Below, piece by piece: positions 1 to 24,240 of a stretch of DNA of 49,077 nucleotides. The notes beneath the pieces are model-generated. The model was not told where the DNA came from. It searched no databases and worked only from the letters and a program-made list of their open reading frames with translations. The DNA comes from Teichococcus wenyumeiae. Its GTDB lineage: Bacteria > Pseudomonadota > Alphaproteobacteria > Acetobacterales > Acetobacteraceae. Numbering within the stretch: the stretch's first letter is position 1; the number at the start of each line of letters is the position of its first letter. A program made the position numbers and the translations under genes. Where the stretch lies: positions 1 to 49,077 of the forward strand of contig NZ_RFLX01000026.1 in assembly GCF_003696345.1 (NCBI RefSeq), given 5' to 3'.

Positions 1-96
1 GGCATCCAAACTGCAGGGACAGAGACCCGACCCGTAACTTCCCGGGCCTCCACCTCCAAGCCGCCAGTCCGTGCAACAAGGTTACGCAACGCAACA

Positions 97-152
97 AACA
101 TGTAAATGTTACCCTTTCCTAAGGCACCGAAGCCTGTCTATCTTCATCTATC
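97..152 (+). promoter_or_regulatory. candidate promoter/operator upstream of the first PKS gene
   Basis: The only stretch in the window with lower GC content. Inverted repeat AACAT-gtaa-ATGTT at 97-110. Tandem CGCAA repeat at 86-95. Direct repeat TCTATC at 137-142 and 147-152, one helical turn apart. No sigma-factor consensus could be assigned with confidence. Confidence 0.25.
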
Positions 153-154
153 GT

Positions 155-164
155 AAGGTAGAGG
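155..164 (+). promoter_or_regulatory. ribosome binding site (AAGGTAGAGG) for the PKS gene
   Basis: Purine-rich Shine-Dalgarno-like sequence 7 nt upstream of the GTG at 172. An in-frame TAA at 154-156 excludes any start further upstream. Confidence 0.5.
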
Positions 165-171
165 CTCCTCA

Positions 172-1830: not shown

Positions 1831-4800
1831 TTCGACACCGCGCCCGGGCGCGCCGCCGCCGGAACGCCGCTCTCCGCTGTCGAGGAGCGCGTGGCCGCAA
1901 TCTGGAGAGCCGTGCTCGACCTGCAGCATGTCGGGCGGGACGAGAACTTCTTCGATCTTGGCGGGCACTCGCTGCTGCTGATCAAGGCCCAGTCGATGCT
2001 GGAGGCCGCCTTCGGGCCCGTGACACTGGGCGACTTGTTCGCGCATTCCACCGTGGCCATGCAGGCCCGCTTCCTGTCAGGCACGAAGGAGGACGTGGTG
2101 CCGCGCCCGGTCCGTCGCAGCGCCGACGGCCGTCGCGTCGACATCGCGGTGATCGGCATGGCCTGCCGCTTCCCCGGTGCCGACACCATTGATGAATTCT
2201 GGCGCAATCTCCGCGACGGCGTGGAATCCATCCGCACCTTCACGGCGGCCGAGGCGGTGAGGGAGGGTGCCGACCCGCGCTCCGCGCAGCAGCCGGGCTA
2301 CGTCGCGGCGAGCCCGGTGTTGAACGACGCCGCCGGGTTCGACGCCACCTTCTTCGGCCTGACGGATCGCGAGGCGGAGCTGATGGACCCGCAGCACCGC
2401 CTGTTCTTGGAATGCTGCTGGGAAGCCATGGAGGATGCGGGGCAGGACACGCTGTCCGCTCCCGGCAGCGTCGGCGTCTATGCCGGCGCGAGCATGAACA
2501 CCTATCTGCTGAACAACGTCCTGCCTGCCCGCGCCGGGCTGGACCCGCAGGACGACCTGCGCAGCGTTACCCTGGATTCCATGGGCGGCTTCCAACTGAT
2601 GGTGGCCAACGACAAGGACTATCTGGCCAGCCGCGTTTCCTACAAGCTCAACTTGCGCGGCCCCAGCATCAACACCCAGACCGCCTGTTCAACCGGCCTC
2701 GTGGTCATCCATCAGGCCGTGCAGAGCCTGTTGGCGGGCGAGTGCGATATGGCCATCGCCGGCACCTCCTCCGTACAGGCGCCGCAGCTGGCCGGGCATC
2801 TGCACCAGGAGGGCATGATCGTGGCACCGGACGGGCACTGCCGCGCCTTCGACGCCGATGCCCGCGGCACCATCTTCGGCAGCGGCGTCGGCGCGGTGGT
2901 GCTGAAGCGGCTGGACGATGCCCTGGCCGCCGGCGACCGCGTGCTCGCGGTGGTGAAAGGCACGGCGGTCAACAATGACGGCCTGCGCAAGGTCGGCTAC
3001 ATGGCGCCGAGTGAGGCCGGCGAGAGTGAGGTCGTGCGTGCCGCGCTGGATGTGGCCGGCGTTCCAGCCGACAGCATCGGCTTCGTGGAAGCGCACGGCA
3101 CGGGCACCGAGATCGGCGACCCCATCGAGGTGGCGAGCCTGACCCGTGCCTGGCGGCATGACACCACGCGAACCGGCTTCTGCGCGCTGGGCTCCGTGAA
3201 GACCAACATCGGCCATCTGCAGATCTCGTCGGGCATCGCCGGCTTCATCAAGGCGGTGCTGGTGCTGCAGCACCGGCAGATCCCGCCCACCCTGCACTAC
3301 CGGCGGCCCAACCCCGCCATTGCCTTCGAGCGCACGCCCTTCTTTGTCAACACGGAAGCGCTGCACTGGGTGGAATCGGAAACGCCGCGCCGCGCGGGCG
3401 TCAACTCGCTCGGCATCGGCGGCACCAACGCGCATGTGATCCTGGAGGAAGCGCCGGCCCGGCCGCGCCGTGCCGCCGGCGACACGCGGGAATGGTATCT
3501 GCTGCCGCTCTCCGCCCGCTCGCCCGCTGCCCTGGCCGCGCTGCTGGCGCGCTATCGCGACAGGCTGCTGGCTGACCCGGCGCTGGACTGCGCCGACCTG
3601 TGCTACAGCGCCGCCACCGGACGCCACCATTTCGCCCACCGCTTTGCCGCCGTCTTCACCGGGCGGGACACGTTGCTGGCGGCGCTCGACGCCGCCCTGG
3701 CCGGCCCGCCGGACACCGCCCGGGCACCGGTGGGCGATGTCGCGTTCCTGTTTACCGGCCAGGGCGCCCAGCACACCGGCATGGCGCTGGGCCTTTACCG
3801 GGAGGAACCGGTTTTCCGCGATGCGCTGGACCGTTGCGCGGCGCTGCTGCGGGCCGAAGACGGGTTCGACCTTCCGGCGGCGCTGCAGGGCGAGGCGCTG
3901 GGCGAGACCGCGCAGGCCCAGCCAGCCCTGTTCGCGGTGGAATACGCGCTGGCGACGCTCTGGCAGGCATGGGGGCTGCGCCCCGCGGCGCTGCTGGGCC
4001 ACAGCCTGGGCGAATACGTCGCCGCCTGTCTCGCCGGTGTGTTCAGCCTGGAGGACGGCCTGCGCCTCGTGGCGGCCCGCGCGCGCCTGATGCAGGCCCT
4101 GCCGCGGGACGGGGCGATGATATCCCTGTCGGCCGATCCTGACCGGGTGCGGGCCGCGCTGGCGCCGTACCGCGACACGGTGTCAGTCGCCGCGCTGAAT
4201 GGTGCGGCCAGCACAGTGGTGTCCGGCCGCGCGGCGGACGTGGCCGCGCTGGCCGCGCGGCTGGAAGCGGATGGCGTGCAAGGCATCGCGCTTCGCACCT
4301 CCCACGCCTTCCACTCGCCGCTGATGCGGCCGATGCTGGAGGCCTTCCGCGCGGTGCTGGCGACGGTGACGCTGCGGCCGCCATCCCTGCCCTTGGTGTC
4401 GAACCTGACCGGCGCGGTGGAAACCGCCTTGTTCACCGAGCCGGACTACTGGCTGCGTCACGTGATGGAGCCTGTGCGCTTCGCGCAGGGCGTCGCCACC
4501 CTGGAAGCGCTGGGATGCGCCACGCTGGTGGAGATCGGCCCCAGGCCGGTGCTGGCCGGGCTGGTGCGCGGCAGCGCTTGCGTTTTGCCGTCCCTCCGCC
4601 CTGGTGTGGCCGATGCGCGGCAGATGCTGGAGAGCCTGGCGGAACTGTACCGGCGCGGCCTGACGGTCCACTGGGACGCGCTGCACGACGCCACCCTGCG
4701 GCAACGCGTCCCACTGCCGTCCTACCCCTTCCAGCATCGCCGGTACTGGATCGAGCCGCGGCCCCAGGCGCCTCAGGCGCAGGATGCCGCGCTGCATCCC

Positions 4801-8475: not shown

Positions 8476-8480
8476 CGCCC

Positions 8481-8690
8481 CTGGATGATCTTCTGGCCGA
8501 GCTGGCCGCCCGTGGCCTGCGGCTGGCGGCGGAAGGCGGGCAGTTGCGCGTGCGCGGCCCCCGTGGCGCGGTGGACGACGCGCTGCGCCAGCGGCTCATG
8601 GCCGCCAAGGACGCCTTGCTGGCCTACCTGGAGCGGGACGCCATCACCGAAGACGCGCTGCCCCGCGTGGTGCCGGACCCGGCGCGGCGG
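8481..8690 (+). other. TubC-like N-terminal docking domain
   Basis: LLAELAARGLRLAAEGGQLRVRGPRGAVDDALRQRLMAAKDALLAYL. The same fold pattern is seen at the N-termini of the genes starting at 19489 and 24048. Confidence 0.6.
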
Positions 8691-11600
8691 CATGAGCCGT
8701 TTCCGTTGACCGACATCCAGGAGGCCTACTGGGTCGGCAGCGGCCTCGAAGGCGGCGGCGGTTACCATTACTACCTGGAATTCGACGTGCCCGGGCTGGA
8801 CGTGGCACGGCTGGAGCGTGCCTGGGGCGCGCTGGTGCTGCGGCACGAGATGCTGCGTGCCGTGGTGATGCCGGACGGGCGCCAGCGCATCCTGCCCGAG
8901 GTGCCGGCGCCCCGCGTCAGCCGCCACGACCTGTCCGGCCTGGCCGGGGACGAGGCCGAGGAGCGGCAGGCCGCGCTGCGGCGGACGCTGTCGCACCCCG
9001 ACCGCCCGCTGGACCGGTGGCCGTTGTCGGAGGTGCATGTCAGCCTGCGGGCCGGCGGGCTGGGGCGGGTGCATGTCAGCCTGGGGCTGATCACGCTCGA
9101 CAGCGGCAGCATGATGATCCTCTTCGCCGAGTGGCAGCGGCTGTACGAGGATGCCGGTGCGGCGCTGCCGCCGCTGCCGACATCGTTCCGCGACTACGTG
9201 CTGGCCGAGCGCGCCCTGCAGGGCACCCCGCTGTTCCAGCGGGCCGAGCGCTACTGGCAGCGGCGGGTCGAGGCGCTGCCCCCCGCCCCGGCGCTGCCGC
9301 TGGCACCGCGCCAGCCCCGCGCCGCGTCCCGCTTCGGGCGGATGACGGGGTGGCTGCCCGCGCCGGAATGGGCGGCGTTGAAGCAGCGGGCGGTGCGGCA
9401 CGGGCTCACGCCCTCTGCCCTGCTGCTGGCGGCCTTTTCCGAGATCCTGGCAGGCTGGAGCGAGAGCCCGCGCTTCACCCTGAACCTGACGCTGTTCAAC
9501 CGCCTGCCGATGGGCGAGGCGATCGGCGCCGTGGTTGGCGACTTCACCTCCGTCACGCTGCTGGAAGTAGACTTCACGGCCCGCCGCCCCTTCGTGGAAC
9601 ACGCGGCGGCCCTGAACCGGCAACTGCGGGAAGACCTCGATCACCGCACCTATCCAGGCGTCCGGGCGCTGAGGGAATGGGCGCGGCGCCAGGGTGTCAC
9701 CGGCCGCGCACTGGCGCCGGTGGTGTTCAGCAGCACGCTGGTGCTGGACACGGCGCAGGGCTTCAGCCTGGGCCGGCTGTTCGGCGGAACATTGGGCTAC
9801 GCCATCAGCCAGACGCCGCAATGCGATCTCGACCACCAGCTGATGGAGGATGACGGCGCGCTGGTGTTCCACTGGGACGTGCTGGACGGCCGGTATCCGG
9901 AAGGCATGGTGACGGCGATGTTCGGCGCCTACACCGCCCTCCTGTCACGGCTCGCGGCGGGGGACGAGGCTTTCGCCGAGGCGAGGGGGCCGGCCATCCC
10001 CGCCGCGCAGCAGTCCCGGCGTGATGCCAGCAACAACACCGCCGCGCCGATGGGGGAGGAAACGCTGTGCGAGCTGTTCGCCCGCCAGGTGGCGTCGCGC
10101 GGCGATGCGCCGGCGGTGATCGCGGGCGAGGAGACGCTCAGCTACCGGGAGCTGGACCTGCGCGCCCGCCGCGTCGCGGGCTGGCTGCTGGCGCAGGGTG
10201 CCTCGCCGGACGCGCCGGTGGCGGTGGTGATGCGCAAGGGCTGGGCCCAGCCGGTCGCGGTGCTGGGCACGCTGATGGCCGGCTGCGCCTACCTGCCGGT
10301 GGATGCCGCCCTGCCGCCTGCCCGCCGTGCCGCACTGCTGCAACAGGCCGGCGCGCGGCAGGTGCTGTGCGACGCCTTGCTGCTGCCAGCCCTGTCGGGC
10401 AGCCTGCCATGCCTGGCGGTTGACGCGCAGCCCGCCGATGCCACCGCTGCCGAACCCAGACCGGCGCCGCCGGACGGCCTGGCCTATGTGCTGTTCACCT
10501 CCGGCTCCACCGGGCAGCCCAAGGGCGTGATGATCGGGCAGCGCGGCGTGGTGCAGCGGATGCAGGACGTGGTGCGCCGCTTCGGGCTGGGGCCGCAGGA
10601 CCGCGTGCTGGGCCTGACGGCGCTGCACCACGATCTCTCGGTGTTCGACATCTTCGGCGTGCTGTGCTGCGCCGGCGGAACCCTGGTGCTGCCCGACGCG
10701 GACGGGCTGCGGGAACCCGCCCACTGGCGCGCGCTGATGGCGCGGCACGGTGTCACGCTGTGGAATTCGGTGCCCGCTTTCCTGTCCATGCTGGCGGACG
10801 AGCTGGAAGCGACCGGGGGCGCGGCCCCGCCCCTGCGCTGGTGCATCCTGTCCGGGGACTTCATTCCGGTGACGCTGCCCGATCGTATCCGCGGCCTGGT
10901 GCCGGGGCTGGAGGTCGTGGCCGCCGGCGGGCCCACCGAGACCACGGTCTGGGACATCTGCGACCCCCTGGACGCGGTGGATGCCGGCCTGCCCAGCATC
11001 CCCTATGGCCGCCCCATGGCGAATGCACGGTACCATGTGCTGCGCGAGAACCTGGACCCTTGCCCGGACTGGGTGCCGGGGGAGTTGTGCATCGCGGGCG
11101 CCGGGCTGGCCCATGGCTACTGGCGGGACGAGGCGGCCACGGCGCGCGCCTTCATCCGCCATCCCGTGACCGGCGAGCGGCTCTACCGCTCCGGCGACAT
11201 GGGGCGCTGGCTGCCGGACGGGCGGATCGAGATCCTGGCGCGCCAGGACTTCCAGGTGAAGCTGCAGGGCCAGCGCATTGAGCTGGGCGAGATCGAGGCC
11301 GCGCTGGAACGGATGCCGGGCGTGGCGCGCGCCGTGGTGACGCTGCAGCGCCTGCCGGCCGGGGAAAGCCGGCTGGTGGCGCATATGGTGCCGGCAGCGG
11401 CCCCGCCCGCCGATGCGTGGCGCCTGGAGTTCAAGCTCGGCCAGCCTGGGCTGCGACGCGCGGAGCCAGGGCAGGACGCCCTGCCGCTGCCCACCGTGCC
11501 GGAAGAATCCGCCGCCTTTCTGGCGCGGCAGAGCCACCGCCGCTTCACCGGCCGCGCCGTGCCGGCGGCGGCGCTGTCCGGGCTGCTGGCTGGGCTCCGG

Positions 11601-12557
11601 CAGATGCCGGTTCCGGGGGCGCCGCTGCCCAAGCGCCTGTATCCCTCAGCCGGCAGCCTCTACCCGTTGCAGGCCTACCTGCATGTCCGGCCTGGGGGCG
11701 TGGCGGGCGTGCCGGCGGGCTTCCACTATTACGACCCCTCCCGCCACGCGCTGCTGCCGGTGGGCGGGGAGGAAGCCGGCCCCTACGCCGGCAGCAACGC
11801 CGCCCTGCTGCGGGAGGCTGCCTTCGTGGTGCTGCTGGTGGGGGCGCTGGACGCGGTGGAGCCCGCCTATCCCGGCGCCAGCCGCGACTTCTGCCTGCTG
11901 GAGGCCGGCCATGCCGGGCAGGTGCTGATGCAGCGGGCGGCGGCGCTGGAGATCGGCCTCTGCCCGCTGGGGCAGGGGGTGGAGGAGGCCGCGCTCCGCC
12001 GCGCCTGCGGCCTCGGCGACCGGCACGTGCTGGCCTATACGCTGGCCGGCGGCGGCATCGATCCCGCCTGGTCCGGCGCCTGGATGGCCAATGACGCGCC
12101 CGGCGCGGCCGAGGCCTGGCACGCGCCGCTGCGCCGGGCGGCGCAGGCGGTGCTGCCCGCCCATATGGTGCCTTCCGCCTTCCGCCGCTGGCCCGCCCTG
12201 CCGCTGACCGCCAATGGCAAGCTCGACCGGCGGCGGCTGGCCGAGGCCGGGGCGGGAGAGGAAGCGGCGCCACCCCCGGCGGCGGCCTCGGCGCTGGAGG
12301 CAGAGGTGGCGGCCATGCTGGGCGCGCTGCTCGGCACCGGCCCGGTGGACCCGGCGGCGCCGTTCTTTGACCTGGGGGCGAGTTCCGTGACGCTGGTGCA
12401 GTTGCGCAACCGGCTGCAGGCCGAATGCGGCCTCACCGTGCCCATGGCGGAGATGTTCGGGCGTGGCAGCGTGCGGCTGCTGGCCCAGTGGCTGGAAGAA
12501 GCAGGCGCCGCCATGCCGGCGCGGCCAGCGATGCCCCGGGCGGAGGCGGTATCGTGA
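8481..12557 (+). CDS. NRPS module: docking domain-Cy-A(embedded Ox)-PCP, a thiazole/oxazole-forming module
   Basis: The ORF track starts at TTG 8544, but the reading frame is open upstream to 8460 and encodes an N-terminal docking fold (PLDDLLAELAARGLRLAAEGGQLRVRG). There is no in-frame ATG/GTG/TTG, so the start is uncertain (CTG 8481 is used here). Cy FPLTDIQEAYWVG. A domain FTSGSTGQPKG, YRSGDMGRW and LTANGKLDR. An FMN-oxidase-like insert (YPSAGSLYPLQAY) lies between A8 and A10. PCP FFDLGASSVT. The stop overlaps the next gene's start (GTGA). Confidence 0.88.
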   Translation: MDDLLAELAARGLRLAAEGGQLRVRGPRGAVDDALRQRLMAAKDALLAYLERDAITEDALPRVVPDPARRHEPFPLTDIQEAYWVGSGLEGGGGYHYYLEFDVPGLDVARLERAWGALVLRHEMLRAVVMPDGRQRILPEVPAPRVSRHDLSGLAGDEAEERQAALRRTLSHPDRPLDRWPLSEVHVSLRAGGLGRVHVSLGLITLDSGSMMILFAEWQRLYEDAGAALPPLPTSFRDYVLAERALQGTPLFQRAERYWQRRVEALPPAPALPLAPRQPRAASRFGRMTGWLPAPEWAALKQRAVRHGLTPSALLLAAFSEILAGWSESPRFTLNLTLFNRLPMGEAIGAVVGDFTSVTLLEVDFTARRPFVEHAAALNRQLREDLDHRTYPGVRALREWARRQGVTGRALAPVVFSSTLVLDTAQGFSLGRLFGGTLGYAISQTPQCDLDHQLMEDDGALVFHWDVLDGRYPEGMVTAMFGAYTALLSRLAAGDEAFAEARGPAIPAAQQSRRDASNNTAAPMGEETLCELFARQVASRGDAPAVIAGEETLSYRELDLRARRVAGWLLAQGASPDAPVAVVMRKGWAQPVAVLGTLMAGCAYLPVDAALPPARRAALLQQAGARQVLCDALLLPALSGSLPCLAVDAQPADATAAEPRPAPPDGLAYVLFTSGSTGQPKGVMIGQRGVVQRMQDVVRRFGLGPQDRVLGLTALHHDLSVFDIFGVLCCAGGTLVLPDADGLREPAHWRALMARHGVTLWNSVPAFLSMLADELEATGGAAPPLRWCILSGDFIPVTLPDRIRGLVPGLEVVAAGGPTETTVWDICDPLDAVDAGLPSIPYGRPMANARYHVLRENLDPCPDWVPGELCIAGAGLAHGYWRDEAATARAFIRHPVTGERLYRSGDMGRWLPDGRIEILARQDFQVKLQGQRIELGEIEAALERMPGVARAVVTLQRLPAGESRLVAHMVPAAAPPADAWRLEFKLGQPGLRRAEPGQDALPLPTVPEESAAFLARQSHRRFTGRAVPAAALSGLLAGLRQMPVPGAPLPKRLYPSAGSLYPLQAYLHVRPGGVAGVPAGFHYYDPSRHALLPVGGEEAGPYAGSNAALLREAAFVVLLVGALDAVEPAYPGASRDFCLLEAGHAGQVLMQRAAALEIGLCPLGQGVEEAALRRACGLGDRHVLAYTLAGGGIDPAWSGAWMANDAPGAAEAWHAPLRRAAQAVLPAHMVPSAFRRWPALPLTANGKLDRRRLAEAGAGEEAAPPPAAASALEAEVAAMLGALLGTGPVDPAAPFFDLGASSVTLVQLRNRLQAECGLTVPMAEMFGRGSVRLLAQWLEEAGAAMPARPAMPRAEAVS
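8690..9960 (+). other. heterocyclization (Cy) domain, variant motif GxxxxDxxS
   Basis: FPLTDIQEAYWVG N-terminal Cy signature. The core aligns ungapped to the second Cy domain (DALWGDAHS) as GLITLDSGS. Confidence 0.7.
10050..12230 (+). other. A domain (Cys-like code DLFNISAVWK) with embedded oxidase
   Basis: A3 motif at about 10494-10529. LSGDFIP (typical of Cys-activating domains). A10 LTANGKLDR. The specificity code was read by manual alignment to GrsA. Confidence 0.7.
11400..11990 (+). other. Ox (FMN-dependent oxidase) domain inserted in the A domain
   Basis: RQSHRRFTGRAV...RLYPSAGSLYPLQAYLHV...FCLLEAGHAGQ. Similar to the EpoB/MtaD-type Ox placed between A8 and A10. Confidence 0.7.
12290..12500 (+). 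other. PCP domain
   Basis: FFDLGASSVTLVQLRNRL. Confidence 0.7.
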
Positions 12558-15500
12558 GCAGCGCGCGCGACATCGCCATCATCGGCATGAGCGGCCGCTT
12601 CCCCGGCGCCCCCGACACCGCGCAGCTCTGGGACAACCTGCTGCAGGGGCGGGACGGCATCACGCGGCCCGATCGGGCGGCGCTGCTGGCGGCGGGGGTG
12701 CCGCAGGCGGTGCTGGACCGGCCCGGCTTCGTGCCCGCCGCGCCGCTGCTGGAAGAGATCGACCGCTTCGACGCCGCCTTCTTCGGCATCAGCCCCCGGG
12801 AAGCCACGACGCTGGCGCCCGCCATCCGGCTGTTCCTGGAGTGCTGCTGGGAAGCTTTCGAGAATGCCGGGCGTGTGCCCGGCGGCGCGGTGGGCGTGTA
12901 TGCCGGCGCCAACATGAGCCAGTACTGGCGGCTGGGCGCGCATGGCTTGGAGCCCGGGCTGGAGCAGATCCTCGGCAATGACAAGGACTACCTCGCCACC
13001 CATGTCGCCTACCGCCTGAACCTGAAGGGGCCGGCACTGTCGGTGCAGACCGCCTGCTCCACCTCGCTGGTGGCGGTGCATATGGCGGCCGAGGCCTTGT
13101 TGTCGGGGCAGTGCGACATGGCGCTGGCCGGCGGCGCCACCGTGCGCGTGCCGCACGACCCCGGGTACCAGTGGACGCAAGGCAGCATCCTCTCCCCGGA
13201 CGGCGTGTGCCGGCCCTTCGATGCCGCCCCCAGCGGCCCGGTCTTCGGCAGCGGCGTCGGCGTCGTGCTGCTGAAGCGGCTGGGGGATGCGCTGACGGAT
13301 GGCGACCCGGTGCGGGCGGTGATCCGCGGTTCCGCCATCAACAACGACGGCGGCGGCAAGGCGGGCTTCACCGCGCCGGGCCTGGAGGGGCAGGCGGCGG
13401 TGGTCGCGCAGGCCCTGGCCCGCGCCGGCGTGCCGGCCCGCAGCATCTCCTACATCGAGGCGCATGGCACGGGCACCGCGCTGGGCGACCCCATCGAGGT
13501 CGCCGCGCTGACCCGCGCCTTCCGGCAGAACACGGCGGAGAGCGGCTTCTGCCGCATCGGCTCCGTGAAGGGCAACCTCGGACACCTGGAGACGGCGGCC
13601 GGGGTCGCCGGCCTGATCAAGACCGTGCTGGCGCTGGAACACCGGGAGCTGCCGCCGAGCGTGCATTATGCGGCGCCGAACCCGGAGATCGACTTCGCCG
13701 CCACCCCCTTCGTGGTGAACGCAGCACGCTGCCCCTGGCAGGCGGAGGGCCCGCTGCGGGCGGGCGTCAGCTCCTTCGGCATGGGTGGCACCAACGCGCA
13801 TGTGGTGCTGGAGGAAGCGCCCCCGCGCGCCGTGCCGGACCTGGATAACCGGCCGCAGTTGCTGCTGCTCTCCGCGCGCACGCCCACGGCGCTGGCACGC
13901 ATCGGCCGCGCCCTGCTGGCGCAGCTGCGCCGGCAACCCGACCTGCGGCTGGCGGACGTGGCCCATACCCTGGCCGCGGGGCGCGCCCGCCTGCCGCTCC
14001 GGCGAGCGCTGGTCTGCGCCTCGGTCGAGGAACTGGCCACGCTGCTGGAAACGCCGACGCCCGCTGTCCGCCCGAAGGCCGGGCCCCCGCCTCATCTGGG
14101 CCTGGTGCTGGACGGCGCGCTGCCGCCCTCCCTGGCCCGCGCGCTGCACGCCGAGGACGACACCTTCCGCGCGGCGGCGGACGAGGCCCTGGCGGCCTGT
14201 GGCCTGACCCCCGACGCCTTTCAGGACCCGCTGCCGCCCGCTGCGGCGTTTTGCGCTGGCCATGGGCTGGCGAGGCTGCTGGCCGCCTGGGGGCTGCCGC
14301 CCGCCGCCCTGGCCGCCGGCACGCCCTGGGCCCTGGCCCTGCGGTCCTGCCTGGAAGGGCGCCTCACCCTGCCCGAAGCCGCCGCGCTGGCCTGTGCGAA
14401 GGGTACGCCGCCTTCCGCCGCAATGGCGCCGGAACAGGCGGGCGGGATCTGGGTCGACCCTTCCGCACTGCGCCTGAATGGCGGTGCCGCCTGGGCGGGG
14501 CGCCATGCCCTGCTGCAACTGGTGGCGCACCTCTGGACCCAGGGGTTGGAACCGCTGCCGGGTGCCCTGGCCGGGGTGTCGGCCCGCCGCGTGGCCCTGC
14601 CGACCTATCCCTTCGAGCGGCAGCGATTCTGGGTGGAGGCGGCCCCACAGCCCGTCGCCGTGGCGGAGCCGCCTGCCGTTGCAGCGCCAACTTCGGCCAG
14701 CGCGCCGGATGCCCGCAGCATCCGGCTGGTCTTGCAGCAGATCGTCGGCCATGCGCTGCACCTGCCGCCCGAACAGGTCTCACCTGACCGCGACTTCATC
14801 GAGATGGGCGCGGATTCCCTGGTGCTGGTGGAATCCGTGCAGGAGATCGAGCGCCGGCTGGGCCTGCGCGTGCCCGTGCGCGACCTGTTCGAGACCACCA
14901 CCACCGTGTCCAGCTTGGCGCGGGCCCTGGCCACGCGGCTGGCGGCGGCTCCAGTTTCGGCGGCGTCACCACCACCCACTCTAGCGGCCATGCCGGTGCC
15001 TGCCGCCGCGCCCTCCATCCCGGCTCCGCCGCCAGACACCGTGCTGGACGACCCCCGGCAGCAGCAGCACGTCGCCGCGCTGGTGGCGCGCTATACCGCG
15101 CGCACGGCGGCCTCCAAGCGTCTGGCGGCGGAGAAGCGGGCGGGGCTGGCCGACGTGCGGGCCGCGGCGGGCTTCAAGCTGCTGATCAAGGAGATGCTCT
15201 ACCCGATCGTGGTGGAGCGTGGTGACGGCGGGCACGTCACCGACGTGGACGGCAACGACTACGTGGACGTGACCATGGGCTTCGGCGTGCGCCTGTTCGG
15301 CCACCGCGCCGCGTTCCTGGACGCCGCGTTGCGCGACCAGTTGGACCGCGACGCGCCGCTGGGGCCGGAGAACCGCGACACCGGCGACGTCGCCGCCTTG
15401 CTGCGGCGGATGACGGGGATGGAGCGGGTCGCCTTCTTCACCACCGGCACGGAAGCGGTGATGACCGCCCTGCGGCTGGCCCGTGCGCGGAGCGGGCGGG

Positions 15501-18500
15501 ACGGGTTGGTGCTGTTTAAGGGGTCCTATCACGGCCATGCCGATGCGACGCTCGGCATCGGCCTGCCCGACGGCCGCGCCGCGCCGCTCTCCGCCGGCGT
15601 GCCCTCCACCACGCTGCAGCACCTGACCATTCTGGACTACGGCAGCGAGGATGCGCTGCACCGCATCGAGGCGCAGGCCGCCCATCTGGCGGCGGTGGTG
15701 GTGGAACCGGTGCAGAGCCGGCATCCGGACCGCCAGCCGCAAGCTTTCCTGCAGGCGCTGCGGCGGATCACGCAGCAGCACGGCATCGCCCTGATCTTTG
15801 ACGAGATGATCACCGGCTTCCGGATCGGTGCCGGGGGCGCCCAGGCCTGGTTCGGGGTGGAGGCGGACATCGCCGCCTACGGCAAGATCGTGGGCGGCGG
15901 CATGCCGGTGGGCGTGGTCGCCGGCAAGGCTGCGTGGATGGACGGGCTGGACGGCGGTGCGTGGCGCTTCGGCGATGCGACCTATCCGGAGAAGCCCGCC
16001 ATCTTCTATGCCGGCACCTTCAACAAGAATCCCTGGACCATGGCCGCCGCGCGCGCGGTGCTGGCGGAGATCGACGCGCGAGGCCCGGCGCTGTTCACCG
16101 CGCTGAACCGCCGCACCACCTGGCTCGCCACCGCGCTGAACGCGTTCTTCGCGCGGGAAGGCGTGGCGCTCGAGGTCGTCCACTTCGCGTCCCTGTTCCG
16201 CTTCCGCGTGGGCGGGCTGGCGGACCTCTTCTTCTTCCACATGATCGCGAGCGGCATCTACATCTGGGAAGGCCGCAACTGCTTCCTGGCCGCGGCGCAT
16301 GACGACGCGGATGTGGAGCGCATCATGGCGGCCGCGCGCGACAGTGCCCTGGCCCTGCGCGCGGACGCCTTGCTGGACGCGGCGCCCCCCGCGCCACGCC
16401 ACCCCGTCACCGCCGCGCAGGCGCAACTGCTGCTGTTGGAGCGGATCGACCCCGATGCCGCGCTGGCCTACAACATTCACCTGACGGCCCTGCTGTCCGG
16501 CCCGCTGGACGAGGACGCGTTGCAGCTGGCGGTCGCGGCCCTGGTGCGGCGGCACGAAGTGCTGCGCAGCCGTTTCCCTGACAGCGCGGATGCGCGCGTG
16601 GCGGAGCCGTTCCTCTGGGTGCCGCTGCAGCGCCACGACCTGGCGCCGGAAGCGGTGGACGGCTGGTTCGCCGGCGAGGCATCCCGCCGCTTCGACCTGG
16701 CGGAAGGCCCGCTGCTGCGCGCACAGCTGTTGCGGCTGGGGGCGGGGTCGGCGCAACTAGTGCTGTCCCTGCCGCACATCATCGGGGACGGCGTGACCCT
16801 GAACCTGCTGCTGCGGGAACTGGTACAGCTCTACGAGGGCGAGCGGGCGGGCCGCGCCGCCGGGCTGCCGGAGCCCGTGCCCTTCCATGCCTACACAGCC
16901 TGGCTGGAAGCCCGCCGCCCTGCCTCGGCCACGGATCTCGCATGGTGGCGGCAACAGCTTGCCGGGCCGCTGCCGGTGCTGAACATGCCGCTGGACCATC
17001 CTCGGCCGGCGGTGCGGCGGCACGCGGCGGCTGTGGCGACCACCCGCATGGATATCGCCCTGGCGACGGCGCTGCGGCGGGCTGGCGGCACGCGGCGCGC
17101 CACCTTCCTGATGCTGTGCCTGGCGGCATGGCAGGCGCTGCTGCACCGGATCAGCGGCGATGACGACCTGATCGTCGGCGTACCCACCGCCGGGCGCGGC
17201 ATGCCGGGCAGCGAGGCGATGGCCGGATATTGCACGCACCTGCTGCCCGTTCGCAGCCGCCCCCTGGCCGGCGCGCGTTTCGCCGACCTGCTGGAAGCCA
17301 CCCGCGCCACGCTGCTGGATGCCATGGCGCATGGCGATCTCCCGTTCGCGGAGCTGCTGGACGCGCTGGCCCTGCCGCGGGACGCGTCGCGCACGCCACT
17401 GCTGTCCACCACCTTCAACCTGGACCACCCCCCGGCAGCGGCCACGATGGATGGCGTGACCCTGCAGGTGGTGCCGCCGCCGGTGCATCATGCCAGCTAC
17501 GAGCTGGCGCTGAACATCACCGAACTGGATGACGGGCCCGTCGTGGAATGCCGCTACCACACCGCCCTGTTCGACCCCGCGCGGATCCAGGCCCTGTTGC
17601 GGCAATACGAGACGGTGCTGCGCCAGGTGGCGGCCGACCTGGAGGTGCCGCTGGCATCGCTCGACCTGTCGCGAGGGGAAGCGGCGCTGCCCGACCCCGC
17701 GGCACCGCTTGCGGAGCCGTCCTACCCTGGCGTGCTGGCGCTGCTGCTGCGCCAGCCGCCCGATGCCATCGCCATCCGGGACGCGGAACGCGCGTGGCGG
17801 TACGCGGAGGTGACGGAGGAAGCCCAGGGCATCGCCCGGATGCTGGTGGCCCATGGCGTGCGGCCCGGGGACCGTGTGGCGCTGCTGGCGCCGCGCGATG
17901 GCCGGCTGGCCTGTGCTATGGCGGGAACCTGGCTGGCAGGCGCCGTCTTCCTTTGCCTGGACGCGGCCCTGCCGCCGGCGCGCCTGCAGGCCATGGCGGA
18001 GGCCGCCGGCGCTGGTTGGGTTCTGGACCTGCATGCCACGCCGTCCACGGTGCCCGCCGGGCCGACGCACCTGCACGCCCCTTCCGGCAGCGTTTGGCCG
18101 GAAGCCGGGTTGCCGGCGATGCCGGCCGGAGACGACCCGGCCTACATCGTCTTCACCTCCGGCACCACGGGCCGGCCGCGCGGCATCCTGGGCACGCACA
18201 AGGGGGTGGCGCAGTTCCTGGACTGGCAGCGCCAGCGCTTCGGCATCGGCCCGGCGGACCATGTGGCGCAACTCGCCGCCCCGTCCTTCGACGTGCTGCT
18301 GCGGGACGTGTTCCTGCCATTGACCACGGGCGCCACGCTGCATGTCCCGCCGCCCGCCGTGGCGGATGACCCTGCCGGCCTCGCCGCATGGCTGGCAGCC
18401 AGTGGCGTCACCGTGCTGCATGCAGTGCCATCGCGCGCACGGGGGTGGCTGGCGGCGGCCCCGGTGGGCGGCTGGCCGCAACTGCGCCGCACCTTCTTCT

Positions 18501-19492
18501 CGGGGGAAGCGCTGGACCCCGGGCTGGCCCGCGCATGGCGGGCAGCCTGCGCGGCCGAGGCGCTGGTGGTGAACTTCTACGGCAGCACCGAGACCACCAT
18601 GATCAAGGGCTACCGCGTGCTGGACGAGGGCGGCCCCCTGCACGCCGTGCTGCCGATGGCTGACACCCAGATGCTGGTGCTGCGAGACGGCCAGCCCTGC
18701 GGCGTCGGCGAAGCAGGAGAGGTGGTGGTCCGCACGCCTTTCCGCAGCGCCGGCTATCTGGAAGGCGGCGCGGCCGCGACCTTCGTGCCCAGCCCCTTCC
18801 GTTCAGCGGACATGCTGTATCGCAGCGGCGACACCGGCCGCTTCCGCGTGGATGGTTCGGTCGAGATCCTGGGCCGGCTGGACGAGCAGGTGAAGATCCG
18901 GGGCGTGCGGGTGGAGCCTGCCGAGGCGCGCCTGGCGCTGGAGGCACACCCGGCCGTGGCACAGGCGGCCGTGCTGGCCTGGCCGGGTGCGGCAGGGCCG
19001 GAACTGGCCGCCTATGTCGTTCCGGCGGCAGATGAGGACCCGGCCCCCGCGGCGCTGCGGGCCTTCCTGGCCGCCCGGCTGCCGGCCGCCGCCGTGCCGG
19101 GATGCGTGACACTCCTGCCCGCGCTGCCGCTGCTGCCGAACGGCAAGCTGGATCGCCACGCCCTGCCGCCGCCACAGGCCGCGTCGCCCGTGGCGGTGGT
19201 GCCACCGCGTGGCGCGATGGAAGCACTGCTGCTGCGGGCATGGCACGACGTGCTGCCAGGCGTCCCGCCGGGTGTGGAGGATGACGTGTTCACGCAGGGC
19301 GCCAACTCGCTCGGCGCGACCCAGCTGGTATCGCGCCTGCGGGGGCTGCTGGGGCTGGAACTGCCGCTGACGGCGGTGTTCGAGAACCCGACGGTGGCCG
19401 CACTGGCGCGGCATGTCGAGATGCGGCAGGCGCTGGCGGCGGTGATGGCCGATCCGGCCGAGATGGATGACGGAGAACTGATCGGTCCATGA
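12554..19492 (+). CDS. hybrid PKS/NRPS: KS-AT(degenerate)-ACP-aminotransferase-C-A-PCP (beta-amino acid forming)
   Basis: GTG at 12554 overlaps the upstream TGA (GTGA). MSSARDIAIIGMSGRFPGA is a KS N-terminus. The stretch 12425-12553 in the ORF track is out-of-context read-through. KS TACSTS, EAHGTGT, GNLGHLE. The AT remnant lacks the active-site Ser (GHGLA). ACP MGADSL. Class III PLP aminotransferase with YGKIVGGGMP. C domain PHIIGDG. A domain FTSGTTGRPRG, YRSGDTGRF, LPNGKLDR. PCP GANSLGA. The C-terminal tail is ...EMDDGELIGP. Confidence 0.9.
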   Translation: MSSARDIAIIGMSGRFPGAPDTAQLWDNLLQGRDGITRPDRAALLAAGVPQAVLDRPGFVPAAPLLEEIDRFDAAFFGISPREATTLAPAIRLFLECCWEAFENAGRVPGGAVGVYAGANMSQYWRLGAHGLEPGLEQILGNDKDYLATHVAYRLNLKGPALSVQTACSTSLVAVHMAAEALLSGQCDMALAGGATVRVPHDPGYQWTQGSILSPDGVCRPFDAAPSGPVFGSGVGVVLLKRLGDALTDGDPVRAVIRGSAINNDGGGKAGFTAPGLEGQAAVVAQALARAGVPARSISYIEAHGTGTALGDPIEVAALTRAFRQNTAESGFCRIGSVKGNLGHLETAAGVAGLIKTVLALEHRELPPSVHYAAPNPEIDFAATPFVVNAARCPWQAEGPLRAGVSSFGMGGTNAHVVLEEAPPRAVPDLDNRPQLLLLSARTPTALARIGRALLAQLRRQPDLRLADVAHTLAAGRARLPLRRALVCASVEELATLLETPTPAVRPKAGPPPHLGLVLDGALPPSLARALHAEDDTFRAAADEALAACGLTPDAFQDPLPPAAAFCAGHGLARLLAAWGLPPAALAAGTPWALALRSCLEGRLTLPEAAALACAKGTPPSAAMAPEQAGGIWVDPSALRLNGGAAWAGRHALLQLVAHLWTQGLEPLPGALAGVSARRVALPTYPFERQRFWVEAAPQPVAVAEPPAVAAPTSASAPDARSIRLVLQQIVGHALHLPPEQVSPDRDFIEMGADSLVLVESVQEIERRLGLRVPVRDLFETTTTVSSLARALATRLAAAPVSAASPPPTLAAMPVPAAAPSIPAPPPDTVLDDPRQQQHVAALVARYTARTAASKRLAAEKRAGLADVRAAAGFKLLIKEMLYPIVVERGDGGHVTDVDGNDYVDVTMGFGVRLFGHRAAFLDAALRDQLDRDAPLGPENRDTGDVAALLRRMTGMERVAFFTTGTEAVMTALRLARARSGRDGLVLFKGSYHGHADATLGIGLPDGRAAPLSAGVPSTTLQHLTILDYGSEDALHRIEAQAAHLAAVVVEPVQSRHPDRQPQAFLQALRRITQQHGIALIFDEMITGFRIGAGGAQAWFGVEADIAAYGKIVGGGMPVGVVAGKAAWMDGLDGGAWRFGDATYPEKPAIFYAGTFNKNPWTMAAARAVLAEIDARGPALFTALNRRTTWLATALNAFFAREGVALEVVHFASLFRFRVGGLADLFFFHMIASGIYIWEGRNCFLAAAHDDADVERIMAAARDSALALRADALLDAAPPAPRHPVTAAQAQLLLLERIDPDAALAYNIHLTALLSGPLDEDALQLAVAALVRRHEVLRSRFPDSADARVAEPFLWVPLQRHDLAPEAVDGWFAGEASRRFDLAEGPLLRAQLLRLGAGSAQLVLSLPHIIGDGVTLNLLLRELVQLYEGERAGRAAGLPEPVPFHAYTAWLEARRPASATDLAWWRQQLAGPLPVLNMPLDHPRPAVRRHAAAVATTRMDIALATALRRAGGTRRATFLMLCLAAWQALLHRISGDDDLIVGVPTAGRGMPGSEAMAGYCTHLLPVRSRPLAGARFADLLEATRATLLDAMAHGDLPFAELLDALALPRDASRTPLLSTTFNLDHPPAAATMDGVTLQVVPPPVHHASYELALNITELDDGPVVECRYHTALFDPARIQALLRQYETVLRQVAADLEVPLASLDLSRGEAALPDPAAPLAEPSYPGVLALLLRQPPDAIAIRDAERAWRYAEVTEEAQGIARMLVAHGVRPGDRVALLAPRDGRLACAMAGTWLAGAVFLCLDAALPPARLQAMAEAAGAGWVLDLHATPSTVPAGPTHLHAPSGSVWPEAGLPAMPAGDDPAYIVFTSGTTGRPRGILGTHKGVAQFLDWQRQRFGIGPADHVAQLAAPSFDVLLRDVFLPLTTGATLHVPPPAVADDPAGLAAWLAASGVTVLHAVPSRARGWLAAAPVGGWPQLRRTFFSGEALDPGLARAWRAACAAEALVVNFYGSTETTMIKGYRVLDEGGPLHAVLPMADTQMLVLRDGQPCGVGEAGEVVVRTPFRSAGYLEGGAAATFVPSPFRSADMLYRSGDTGRFRVDGSVEILGRLDEQVKIRGVRVEPAEARLALEAHPAVAQAAVLAWPGAAGPELAAYVVPAADEDPAPAALRAFLAARLPAAAVPGCVTLLPALPLLPNGKLDRHALPPPQAASPVAVVPPRGAMEALLLRAWHDVLPGVPPGVEDDVFTQGANSLGATQLVSRLRGLLGLELPLTAVFENPTVAALARHVEMRQALAAVMADPAEMDDGELIGP
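12566..13830 (+). other. KS domain (follows an NRPS module)
   Basis: Cys, His and His active-site residues are all present (TACSTSLV, EAHGTGT, GNLGHLETAAG). Confidence 0.85.
13850..14600 (+). other. degenerate/truncated AT domain (AT-null)
   Basis: The KS-AT linker and the post-AT PTYPFERQRFW motif are conserved. The AT core is shortened, and GHSxG is replaced by AGHGLAR at 14258-14272, so there is no catalytic Ser. Confidence 0.65.
14720..14930 (+). other. ACP domain
   Basis: DFIEMGADSLVLVESVQ. Confidence 0.7.
15050..16330 (+). other. PLP-dependent aminotransferase (AMT) domain, class III / GSA-aminotransferase-like
   Basis: VDVTMGFGVRLFGH, FFTTGTEAVMTALRLAR, IFDEMITGFR, and the PLP-Lys motif AYGKIVGGGMP (Lys codon at about 15884-15886). 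The domain order ACP-AMT-C resembles MycA/ItuA/McyE-type beta-amino installation. Confidence 0.8.
16390..17700 (+). other. C domain (accepts beta-aminoacyl donor)
   Basis: PHIIGDG, an HHxxxDG variant in which the second His is retained. Confidence 0.7.
17720..19170 (+). other. A domain, non-standard specificity code DVRHFSFMIK
   Basis: The A3 motif reads TSGTTGRPRG (Lys to Arg). A7 YRSGDTGRF. A10 LPNGKLDR. The code keeps a Ser-like D-V-x-H-x-S core but otherwise matches no standard code. Confidence 0.65.
19230..19430 (+). other. PCP domain
   Basis: DVFTQGANSLGATQLVSRL. Confidence 0.65.
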
Positions 19493-24051: not shown

Positions 24052-24240
24052 CCAGCCCCTGCATCGAGGATTTCCTCGAAGTCCTTTCGCGCGCCGGCGT
24101 CGTGCTGGCCGTGGAGGGAGACCGCCTCCGCCTGCGCGCCGCCCCCGGCGTGCTGAACGACGCGCTGCGGGCGGAGATCGCGGCGCGCAAGCCGGAACTG
24201 CTGCGGGCGCTCGGCCGGAATGAGGGCATCCGCGCGGCAG
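24048..24240 (+). other. TubC-like N-terminal docking domain
   Basis: IEDFLEVLSRAGVVLAVEGDRLRLRAAPGVLNDALRAEIAARKPELLRAL. Confidence 0.6.

What the first reader, a model, noticed from the sequence alone, without database searches (positions are those of the whole stretch)
13850..14600. Decayed acyltransferase in the aminotransferase-bearing PKS module (GHSxG replaced by GHGLA, core shortened)
The KS-AT linker and the post-AT PTYPFERQRFW motif are intact. The AT core between them is about 70 aa short and lacks the catalytic Ser (AGHGLAR at 14258-14272). The ACP of this module therefore needs malonyl loading in trans. That could come from the functional malonyl-AT of the first PKS gene or from a discrete AT outside this window. 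This is an evolutionary intermediate between cis-AT and AT-less architecture.
Basis: seen in the sequence. Interest (0 to 1): 0.6.

Follow-up and report, generated by a model that had tools for sequence, protein, structure and literature searches.

The report
Dead, truncated acyltransferase relic in PKS module
One module of a hybrid polyketide/peptide assembly line in Pseudoroseomonas wenyumeiae carries only a catalytically dead stump of its acyltransferase domain, so its carrier protein must be loaded by an enzyme elsewhere. This arrangement is real, but close precedents are already known.

Summary
Gene 3 (12554-19492) reads KS, KS-AT linker, AT relic, post-AT PTYPFERQRFW, ACP, aminotransferase, C-A-PCP. 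Pfam finds no AT there, even at E<=10.

- **Size of the loss.** The stretch from the KS end to PTYPF is 262 aa. It is 423 aa in gene 1 and a median of 437 aa in homologues. So 160-175 aa are missing, not about 70.
- **Motif register.** The true GHSxG equivalent is G632-T-P-W-A636 (14318-14332), with Ser replaced by Pro.
- **Other catalytic residues.** The GQG motif is lost, Arg is replaced by Lys, and the HAFH His and the small subdomain are deleted.
- **Not an artefact.** No AT is hidden in another frame, and a second strain has the same short core.
- **Rest of the module.** The KS, ACP and aminotransferase motifs are intact. Between the two strains pN/pS for gene 3 is 0.16.
- **Relatives.** Homologues form a graded series from full AT, through truncated AT, to no AT. 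The closest relative has no AT at all.
- **Known precedents.** The best solved match is OzmQ KS1 (PDB 4OQJ), a trans-loaded module with a similar partial AT. MycA, loaded by FenF, is the functional precedent.

Verdict: a non-catalytic AT relic whose ACP is malonylated in trans, by an unidentified donor. It is a new member of a known kind.

The parts
12554..19492 (+). Gene 3: hybrid PKS/NRPS, KS - linker - AT relic - ACP - aminotransferase - C - A - PCP. The probable start is GTG 12554, which overlaps the gene-2 stop (GTGA).
   Evidence: ORF list, Pfam, start/stop overlap. Between strains pN/pS is 0.16.
12566..13669 (+). Ketosynthase domain with an intact Cys-His-His triad (TACSTS at 13049-13066, EAHGTGT at 13457-13477, GNLGHLE at 13571-13591).
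   Evidence: Pfam PF00109 and PF02801, motifs, conserved or invariant columns C168, H304 and H344.
13676..14080 (+). KS-AT linker subdomain, intact.
   Evidence: PF16197, PF22621 and PF22336. AlphaFold pLDDT is mostly above 90.
14081..14404 (+). N-terminal third of the AT large subdomain, retained but degenerate. The GQG-motif strand is HLGLVLDGALPP (14093-14128). It is followed by helices, the elbow strand and the helix after it.
   Evidence: BLASTP against the gene-1 AT, MAFFT, AT HMM nodes 11-35 and 72-125. AlphaFold pLDDT is 74-97 by 10-residue block. It aligns with OzmQ 548-635.
14255..14275 (+). It is part of the helix that precedes the nucleophile elbow and is not the GHSxG motif.
   Evidence: It aligns with 'EYALAxL' of real ATs. 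It is helical in the model (H562-578).
14318..14332 (+). True equivalent of GHSxG: G632-T633-P634-W635-A636. The catalytic Ser is replaced by Pro.
   Evidence: Four independent alignments agree.
14405..14500 (+). A 32-aa filler that stands in for about 180 aa of AT (the rest of the large subdomain, the small ferredoxin-like subdomain and the HAFH His). It is mostly predicted disordered.
   Evidence: AT HMM nodes 126-308 are unmatched. pLDDT is below 50 for model residues 621-634.
14501..14632 (+). Last AT helix (RHALLQLVAHLWTQGLEP) and the post-AT linker with PTYPFERQRFW.
   Evidence: nodes 309-325. pLDDT is 83-96 by block.
14732..14929 (+). ACP with the phosphopantetheine-attachment Ser (GADSL, 14807-14821). 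This is the carrier that must be malonylated in trans.
   Evidence: PF00550, motif.
15203..16141 (+). Class-III aminotransferase domain with the PLP-binding Lys (YGKIVGGG, 15878-15901). It would convert the beta-keto product to a beta-amino product.
   Evidence: PF00202, motif.
3745..4632 (+). The only intact AT in the window (gene 1): GQGAQ, GHSLGE and HAFH (the malonyl-type motif). It is a candidate donor acting in trans.
   Evidence: PF00698 at 197 bits, motifs, tblastn of the whole window.

Best explanation
The stretch 14081-14554 is the non-catalytic relic of a cis-acyltransferase.

**What is left (shown).** The relic keeps about 110 residues of the N-terminal part of the AT large subdomain and the last AT helix. 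These stay attached to an intact KS-AT linker and post-AT linker. Every catalytic element has been substituted or deleted.

**Role of the relic (inferred).** It probably persists as a structural scaffold that keeps the linker and post-AT linker packed on the KS.

**Chemistry of the module (inferred).**
1. The module is still used.
2. The KS takes the thiazole-containing chain from the gene-2 Cy-A-Ox-PCP module.
3. The KS condenses that chain with malonyl-ACP.
4. The aminotransferase turns the beta-keto group into a beta-amine.
5. The C domain passes the chain on.

**Source of malonyl (inferred).** Malonyl is put on the ACP in trans by an AT encoded outside this module. The most likely donor is a housekeeping FabD-type malonyl-CoA:ACP transacylase or another discrete AT elsewhere in the genome. 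The gene-1 AT is the alternative.

**Origin (inferred).** The module descends from ordinary KS-AT-ACP-aminotransferase modules and is part-way along a recurrent path of AT loss.
For: **The AT is dead**
- No PF00698 hit at E<=10.
- Ser is replaced by Pro634, Arg by Lys659, and the GQG motif is lost. The HAFH motif and the small subdomain are deleted.
- 160-175 aa are missing.

**The deletion is real**
- No AT is present in other frames.
- A second strain has the same structure.
- All 49 indels between the strains are 1-nt deletions in the other assembly, consistent with sequencing errors.

**The module is still under selection**
- Between the two strains g3 has 26 synonymous and 11 non-synonymous changes, pN/pS 0.16.
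- The KS, ACP and aminotransferase motifs are intact.

**The relic is predicted to fold**
- AlphaFold gives mean pLDDT 89 and pTM 0.91. The relic scores 74-97 by 10-residue block.

**Precedent**
- The best PDB match is OzmQ KS1 (4OQJ): 45% identity, TM 0.83/0.88.
- OzmQ is the only solved chain that aligns over the whole relic.
- OzmQ is annotated KS-ACP. A review attributes loading of the AT-less oxazolomycin modules to the discrete OzmM-AT2, which is required for production (PMC9057759).
- MycA, ItuA and BmyA have the same KS-ACP-aminotransferase order, and FenF loads malonyl onto MycA's ACP2 (PMC3039948).

**Evolution**
- There is a graded series of AT decay among homologues.
- g3 is sister to the fully AT-less P0027.

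**The donor lies outside the cluster in relatives**
- Six relatives with a decayed or absent AT have no discrete AT called within the flanks fetched, up to 10 kb each side. tblastn confirmed this for three of them.
- Several of those clusters have no AT at all in view.
- There is no AT in the 10 kb upstream of gene 1 in the sister strain.
Against: - No product is known, and there are no expression or biochemical data.
- The donor AT is not identified. The downstream flank of the window and the rest of the genome could not be examined.
- Selection on the relic itself cannot be measured. Only one synonymous and one non-synonymous difference separate the strains.
- No orthologue with the same relic was found among 5.8 billion proteins.
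- The AlphaFold confidence for the relic may be inflated, because the alignment was made mostly of full-length ATs.
- The scaffold role is an inference from retention, not a test.
Confidence: 0.75

Rival explanations
1. The gene-1 cis-AT (3745-4632) is the dedicated donor. It malonylates both its own ACP and, in trans, the gene-3 ACP, so the cluster is self-sufficient.
For: It is the only intact AT in the window, and it carries the malonyl-type HAFH motif. No discrete AT lies in the window or in the 10 kb upstream.
Against: Relatives with a decayed or absent AT (P0023, P0087, P0079, P0053) have no AT of any kind in the visible cluster, so an outside donor is enough in this family. There is no evidence of contact between gene 1 and gene 3. 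Gene 2 lies between them in the assembly order.
Confidence: 0.25
2. The module or the whole cluster is decaying and no longer makes the extended product. The AT relic is simply a pseudogenised part of a dead pathway.
For: The cluster is flanked by IS/transposase genes in the sister strain. No orthologue with the same relic was found. The public assembly annotates the genes as fragments.
Against: The 2312-codon frame is open in the window. The fragments in the other assembly are explained by 49 one-base deletions and no insertions, which is an error pattern. Substitutions are mostly at third codon positions, with pN/pS of 0.15-0.35 for g1 to g4. All other catalytic motifs of the module are intact.
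Confidence: 0.1
3. This is a sequencing, assembly or frameshift artefact, and a full AT exists in the real genome.
For: The other public assembly of the species shows many frameshifts in this cluster.
Against: The DNA between the linker and PTYPF is about 480-525 bp too short to encode an AT in any frame. tblastn finds no AT-like sequence in other frames. The second strain differs at 216 substitutions over 20.6 kb (98.7% identity) and has the same length here apart from one homopolymer base. The KS and ACP are in the same frame.
Confidence: 0.02
4. The relic has a new specific job, such as a docking surface for the trans-acting AT or for the downstream aminotransferase, and is not merely a passive scaffold.
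For: Independent lineages stop at a similar stump of N-terminal helices plus last helix: g3, P0008, P0020 and OzmQ. The helix 'xxALAxLxxxWG' is the best-kept element. [quoted passage not shown]
Against: Close relatives, including the sister P0027, have lost the stump entirely and keep only the linker and the last helix. So the stump is dispensable in the family. No interaction data exist.
Confidence: 0.15

Closest known systems
OzmQ KS1 of the oxazolomycin synthase (PDB 4OQJ). From my memory, Lohman et al. 2015 PNAS describe one AT-less KS structure with a partial AT domain; I could not read the paper here.
   Same: - KS, then intact KS-AT linker, then a truncated AT stump, then LPTYPFER.R.W, then ACP.
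- 45% identity, TM-score 0.83/0.88 over about 700 residues.
- It is the only solved chain that aligns across the whole relic.
- The KS-end-to-PTYPF length is similar, about 245 aa against 262 aa.
- It follows an NRPS module, so the KS accepts an amino-acid-derived chain.
- It has no catalytic Ser.
   Different: - OzmQ sits in a bona fide trans-AT cluster with a discrete AT. OzmM-AT2 is required for production (PMC9057759).
- Here no discrete AT is visible, and gene 1 has a working cis-AT.
- OzmQ has also lost the elbow region and the helix after it, which g3 still keeps in degenerate form.
- OzmQ has no aminotransferase domain.
MycA / ItuA / BmyA (mycosubtilin, iturin and bacillomycin synthetases) with the FenF / ItuD / BmyD malonyl-CoA transacylase
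   Same: The domain order is the same: KS, ACP, aminotransferase, then an NRPS module, making a beta-amino acyl unit. The reviewed domain list includes no AT, and FenF loads malonyl onto ACP2 (PMC3039948).
   Different: In Bacillus the transacylase gene is the first gene of the operon. No such gene lies in this window or in the 10 kb upstream in the sister strain. MycA starts from a fatty acid, whereas g3 extends a thiazole-containing chain. Sequence relatedness to MycA was not tested.
Ordinary cis-AT KS-AT-ACP-aminotransferase modules (the type seen in the homologues found here, e.g. P0006, P0009, P0028, P0113)
   Same: These are the closest sequence relatives: 44-56% identity over KS, linker, ACP and aminotransferase, in the same domain order.
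   Different: They have a full AT. The distance from KS end to PTYPF is 423-472 aa, and GHSxG and HAFH are present in those inspected.
Colibactin PKS modules ClbK and ClbC (PDB 8CJH, 8XBL)
   Same: They are hybrid NRPS/PKS KS modules and high-ranking structural matches. ClbK aligns with g3 from the KS end to the post-AT motif over a similar length (g3 query residues 4-330 against ClbK 373-697).
   Different: Identity is lower (33-35%). The relic-only query matches ClbK only at the last helix and post-AT motif (E 0.39). How ClbK is loaded was not checked here.

Membership tests
Functional malonyl/acyl-CoA:ACP acyltransferase domain (Pfam PF00698, FabD fold) | Match to PF00698 above the gathering score | tested here: not met
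   No hit, even at E<=10. The gene-1 AT scores 197 bits.
Functional malonyl/acyl-CoA:ACP acyltransferase domain (Pfam PF00698, FabD fold) | GHSxG nucleophile elbow with the catalytic Ser | tested here: not met
   The equivalent is G-T-P-W-A (aa 632-636), with Ser replaced by Pro.
Functional malonyl/acyl-CoA:ACP acyltransferase domain (Pfam PF00698, FabD fold) | Catalytic His in the (H/Y)A(F/S)H motif, and the small ferredoxin-like subdomain | tested here: not met
   AT profile nodes 126-308 have no counterpart. Only 32 residues fill the gap.
Functional malonyl/acyl-CoA:ACP acyltransferase domain (Pfam PF00698, FabD fold) | N-terminal GQGxQ motif and the carboxylate-binding Arg | tested here: not met
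   FLFTGQGAQ is replaced by GLVL--DGALP, and Arg by Lys659.
AT-less KS with a partial AT stump (OzmQ KS1 type) | Active KS (Cys-His-His), retained KS-AT linker subdomain and post-AT LPTYPF motif | tested here: met
AT-less KS with a partial AT stump (OzmQ KS1 type) | A truncated, non-catalytic piece of AT between the linker and the post-AT motif, similar to the solved example | tested here: met
   phmmer aligns relic residues 6-186 with OzmQ 548-707 (E 2e-4). Foldseek gives TM 0.83/0.88.
AT-less KS with a partial AT stump (OzmQ KS1 type) | A discrete trans-acting AT encoded in the cluster | tested here: inconclusive
   None lies in the 49-kb window or in the 10 kb upstream in the sister strain.
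MycA-type beta-amino-forming module loaded in trans | Domain order KS - ACP - class-III aminotransferase - C - A - PCP, without a functional AT | tested here: met
   Pfam architecture. The AT is dead.
MycA-type beta-amino-forming module loaded in trans | A FenF-like malonyl-CoA transacylase gene adjacent in the operon | tested here: not met
   No such gene lies in the window or in the upstream 10 kb.
MycA-type beta-amino-forming module loaded in trans | Malonylation of the ACP in trans, demonstrated | not testable with these tools
   This needs a biochemical assay.
trans-AT PKS assembly line (as a lineage) | All PKS modules lack AT, and the KS groups with trans-AT KS clades | tested here: not met
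   Gene 1 has a complete cis-AT. The nearest relatives of the g3 KS are cis-AT KS-AT-ACP-aminotransferase modules.

The most novel reading that the evidence does not exclude
AT decay may be a frequent, repeatable and stepwise process in single-PKS-module hybrid NRPS/PKS clusters.

- **The steps.** The small subdomain and His go first, then the C-terminal half of the large subdomain, then everything except the linker and the last helix.
- **Why it may be tolerated.** A housekeeping FabD-type enzyme may already malonylate these ACPs, so no cluster-encoded trans-AT is needed.
- **What g3 offers.** With its AT-less sister P0027, g3 would be a natural snapshot of how AT-less modules arise from cis-AT modules, independently of the classical trans-AT PKS lineage.
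Probability: 0.4. Interest if true: 0.45.

Novelty: new member of a known kind. Interest (0 to 1): 0.3.

Why it matters
- **Annotation and product prediction.** Automatic tools will either call this module AT-less or miss that it still needs malonyl. The predicted product should still contain a C2-extended beta-amino unit after the first thiazole.
- **Enzymology.** The case adds a cis-AT-lineage example, in an Alphaproteobacterium, to the very few described partial-AT modules.
- **Evolution.** With its relatives it gives a graded natural series for asking which parts of the AT are needed only as scaffold. That is useful for engineering AT-deleted or AT-swapped modules.
- **Limits.** It does not reveal a new kind of system.

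Tried and rejected
- **Hidden AT in another frame.** tblastn of the gene-1 AT against all six frames found only a weak in-frame hit at 14243-14401. Rejected.
- **Assembly artefact.** The second strain, L004, is collinear over the region. Rejected.
- **Orthologues carrying the same relic, for a selection test.** Searching 5.8 billion proteins with the relic returned only fragments from the same species and one real AT at E 3e-5. With one synonymous and one non-synonymous difference between strains, the test has no power.
- **Source genome and flanks.**
  - The genome-contig scan returned only FAAL relatives at 35-52% identity, not the source genome.
  - Exact-protein look-ups of the PPTase (two start codons) and the type II thioesterase failed.
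  - The region is not in PLSDB.
  - Upstream sequence was reached only through a gene-1 fragment of the sister strain.
- **Discrete AT.** None was found in the window, upstream or near six relatives.
- **Literature.** Several searches for 'AT remnant' or 'inactive AT' returned nothing specific. Lohman 2015 and Gay 2014 are not held.
- **ORF 43313-44701 (+) as a possible unknown AT.** It has no family hit. The codon-position GC shows that the minus-strand ORF is the real gene.
Full report
**Setting**

The window is a high-GC (about 73%) hybrid PKS/NRPS cluster, with all synthetase genes on the + strand.
- g1 (172-8475): FAAL-ACP-KS-AT-DH-cMT-KR-ACP.
- g2 (8544-12557): C/Cy-A-Ox-PCP.
- g3 (ORF from 12425, probable start GTG 12554 overlapping the g2 stop): KS-linker-[gap]-ACP-aminotransferase-C-A-PCP.
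- g4, g5 and g6: NRPS modules that end in Cy-A-Ox-PCP-TE.
- On the minus strand: an ABC exporter, a DUF697 protein, a type II thioesterase and a PPTase.

Fragments that are 98-100% identical come from Pseudoroseomonas wenyumeiae, assembly GCA_042665835.1.

**Checking the observation**

AGHGLAR is at 14255-14275 and PTYPFERQRFW at 14600-14632. The KS-AT linker families match well, but Acyl_transf_1 does not match at all, even at E<=10. Two details need correction.

The first is the motif register. Four alignments agree on it:
- BLASTP against the gene-1 AT.
- MAFFT with 15 homologous modules.
- phmmer against ClbI.
- An HMM built from 83 full ATs of the homologues.

In all of them 'FCAGHGLARLLAAWGL' is the helix that precedes the nucleophile elbow ('FAVEYALAxLWxxWG'). 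GHSLG corresponds to G632-T633-P634-W635-A636 (nt 14318-14332), so the Ser is replaced by Pro.

The second is the size of the loss. From the KS end to PTYPF is 262 aa in g3, 423 aa in g1, and a median of 437 aa over 107 module spans, 105 of them valid single modules. That is 160-175 aa missing, not about 70.

The other catalytic elements fare as follows:
- The HMM matches the relic in three collinear pieces (nodes 11-35, 72-125 and 309-325; 9.4 bits, E 2.8e-5 for a single-sequence search).
- Nodes 126-308 have no counterpart. These cover the rest of the large subdomain, the small subdomain and the HAFH His.
- FLFTGQGAQ has become GLVL--DGALP.
- The carboxylate-binding Arg is replaced by Lys659.

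**Is it an artefact?**

It is not an artefact, on four grounds.
- tblastn of the gene-1 AT against all six frames finds nothing except a weak in-frame hit at 14243-14401.
- The DNA is simply too short to hold an AT.
- The second strain (L004) is 98.7% identical over 20.6 kb and collinear through the region.
- All 49 indels between the two sequences are single-base deletions in L004, with no insertions. That is a sequencing-error pattern, and it explains why the public annotation shows fragments.

The 216 substitutions fall mainly at third codon positions. For g3 there are 26 synonymous and 11 non-synonymous changes, giving pN/pS 0.16. So the gene has been under purifying selection. The relic itself has only one change of each type, which gives no statistical power.

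**The rest of the module**

The other domains look functional:
- KS Cys-His-His (TACSTS, EAHGTGT, GNLGHLE).
- ACP Ser (GADSL).
- Aminotransferase Lys (YGKIVGGG).

All are present, at positions that are conserved or invariant in the 70-sequence alignment. A working KS needs malonyl-ACP, so loading in trans is the logical consequence. This step is an inference.

**Relatives**

Of the 120 best homologues of the KS-to-aminotransferase stretch (44-56% identity), most are KS-AT-ACP-aminotransferase proteins with PF00698.

Measured over 105 valid modules, 90 have the normal spacing of 420-480 aa. Fifteen, g3 included, are short and lack GHSxG. Their lengths are 393, 368, 366, 355, 349, 307, 264, 262 (g3), 252, 162, 149, 147, 145, 127 and 119 aa.

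The alignment shows an ordered series:
1. The small subdomain with HAFH is lost first (P0025, P0004, P0053, P0029, and part of it in P0077).
2. The C-terminal half of the large subdomain goes next (P0087 in part, P0020, g3, P0008).
3. Finally only the linker, the last helix and PTYPF remain (P0027, P0079, P0023).

I built a neighbour-joining tree of the KS C-terminal half plus linker. It is rough and has no bootstrap. It places g3 as sister to the AT-less P0027. The other short modules are scattered next to full-length sisters, for example P0077 with P0088, P0005.2 with P0015.2, P0053 with P0121, and P0023 with P0028. That implies several independent losses.

**Structure and the closest solved precedent**

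AlphaFold on residues 44-770 of the ORF, with 69 homologues in the alignment, gives mean pLDDT 89 and pTM 0.91.
- The relic is predicted as a strand plus helices, with pLDDT of 74-97 by 10-residue block.
- A disordered 14-residue segment follows (model 621-634).
- The last helix and post-AT linker are again confident.
- The confidence for the relic may be helped by the full-length ATs in the alignment.

Foldseek against the PDB ranks OzmQ KS1 (4OQJ) first, at 45% identity and TM 0.83/0.88 over 718 columns. OzmN KS2, ClbI, ClbK and ClbC follow. By sequence, OzmQ is the only solved chain that aligns over the whole relic. Its KS-end-to-PTYPF distance is about 245 aa.

OzmQ is annotated as KS-ACP and follows an NRPS module. 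A review attributes loading of the AT-less oxazolomycin modules to the discrete OzmM-AT2, which is required for production (PMC9057759). From memory, Lohman et al. 2015 (PNAS 112:12693) describe one AT-less KS structure with a partial AT domain. I could not open that paper.

The functional precedent for the domain order is MycA/ItuA/BmyA. These have KS-ACP-aminotransferase, and FenF loads malonyl onto MycA's ACP2 (PMC3039948). The KS domains of trans-AT modules in general keep the KS-AT linker subdomain (PMC11907408).

**Who loads the ACP?**

This is not settled.
- The window holds only one AT, that of g1, which has the malonyl-type HAFH motif.
- The 10 kb upstream of g1 in the sister strain carries IS and transposase genes, and no AT in any frame.
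- The downstream flank and the rest of the genome could not be reached.
- Six relatives with a decayed or absent AT have no discrete AT called within the flanks fetched, up to 10 kb each side. tblastn confirmed this for three of them. Several of those clusters show no AT at all.

So an outside donor, most simply the FabD of fatty-acid synthesis, appears to be enough in this family. I therefore favour an outside discrete AT over the g1 AT, but only moderately.

**Comparison and novelty**

The relic fails every defining feature of a working AT. It meets the architectural features of the OzmQ-type 'KS with partial AT', and it has the MycA-type module order.

It differs from both in three ways:
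- No cluster-encoded trans-AT is visible.
- It sits in a cluster whose other PKS module has a working cis-AT.
- It belongs by descent to cis-AT KS-AT-ACP-aminotransferase modules, not to the classical trans-AT lineage.

This makes it a new member of a known kind. What might be of wider interest is the frequency and stepwise order of AT decay among these modules, seen here in passing. That would need a proper phylogenetic study.

**Verdict**

| Question | Answer |
|---|---|
| Observation | Partly confirmed: real, but mis-registered and under-measured |
| Interpretation | Supported in substance |
| Mechanism | Dead scaffold plus trans-malonylation, confidence about 0.75 |
| Donor | Unknown |
| Interest | 0.3 |

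Noticed in passing
L085 and L086 (GCA_042665835.1 contig JBHTEG010000006.1, record 26442-47227 and 230976-248326); window 1-11000: The start of the cluster (g1-g2) occurs twice on the same 248-kb contig, about 204.5 kb apart and 99.8% identical. This is either a circular replicon of about 204 kb assembled past its ends or a real duplication. IS66, IS21, DDE and Mu-type transposase genes lie directly upstream. Homology to the window begins only at window position 85.
   Followed up: partly
window 4396-25005 versus L004: The public assembly of the species differs from the window by 49 indels, all single-base deletions on its side. This fragments every synthetase gene into 'hypothetical' pieces in the annotation. 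The substitutions behave like real strain divergence (pN/pS 0.15-0.35).
   Followed up: yes
homologues P0004-P0123 (not in the window): About one in seven related KS modules (15 of 105) has a shortened AT without GHSxG, in a graded series of lengths from 393 to 119 aa. These modules are scattered over the KS tree. None of the six clusters inspected has a discrete AT within the flanks fetched (up to 10 kb each side).
   Followed up: partly
window 43313-44701: The 462-aa plus-strand ORF after g6 has no family hit and an atypical codon-position GC (GC3 0.70). The overlapping minus-strand ORF 43319-44659 (446 aa) has GC3 0.86 and is more probably the real gene. By eye it starts with a hydrophobic N-terminal segment. 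It has no NCBIfam match and was not scanned with Pfam.
   Followed up: partly
window 12551-12560: The g2 stop and the probable g3 start overlap as GTGA (GTG 12554-12556, TGA 12555-12557), which suggests translational coupling. The ATG at 12425 listed as the ORF start lies inside g2.
   Followed up: partly
window 23232-24051: The ORF listed as 23232-34466 overlaps g4 by about 800 bp. A TubC-type N-terminal docking domain sits at aa 278-326 of that ORF, so the real g5 start is probably near 24050-24065. A TubC_N match is also called at the start of the g2 equivalent in the sister strain.
   Followed up: no
window 37400-38000 (g6 aa 985-1167): An FkbM-family methyltransferase domain (PF05050) lies in the first NRPS module of g6, after the A-domain core and before the PCP. 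g4 and g5 carry Methyltransf_12-type domains in the same position.
   Followed up: no
window 1-2000 and 44001-48000: GC content drops to 0.64 at the first 2 kb and to 0.66-0.69 over the accessory genes at the 3' end, against 0.72-0.75 across the synthetase genes.
   Followed up: no
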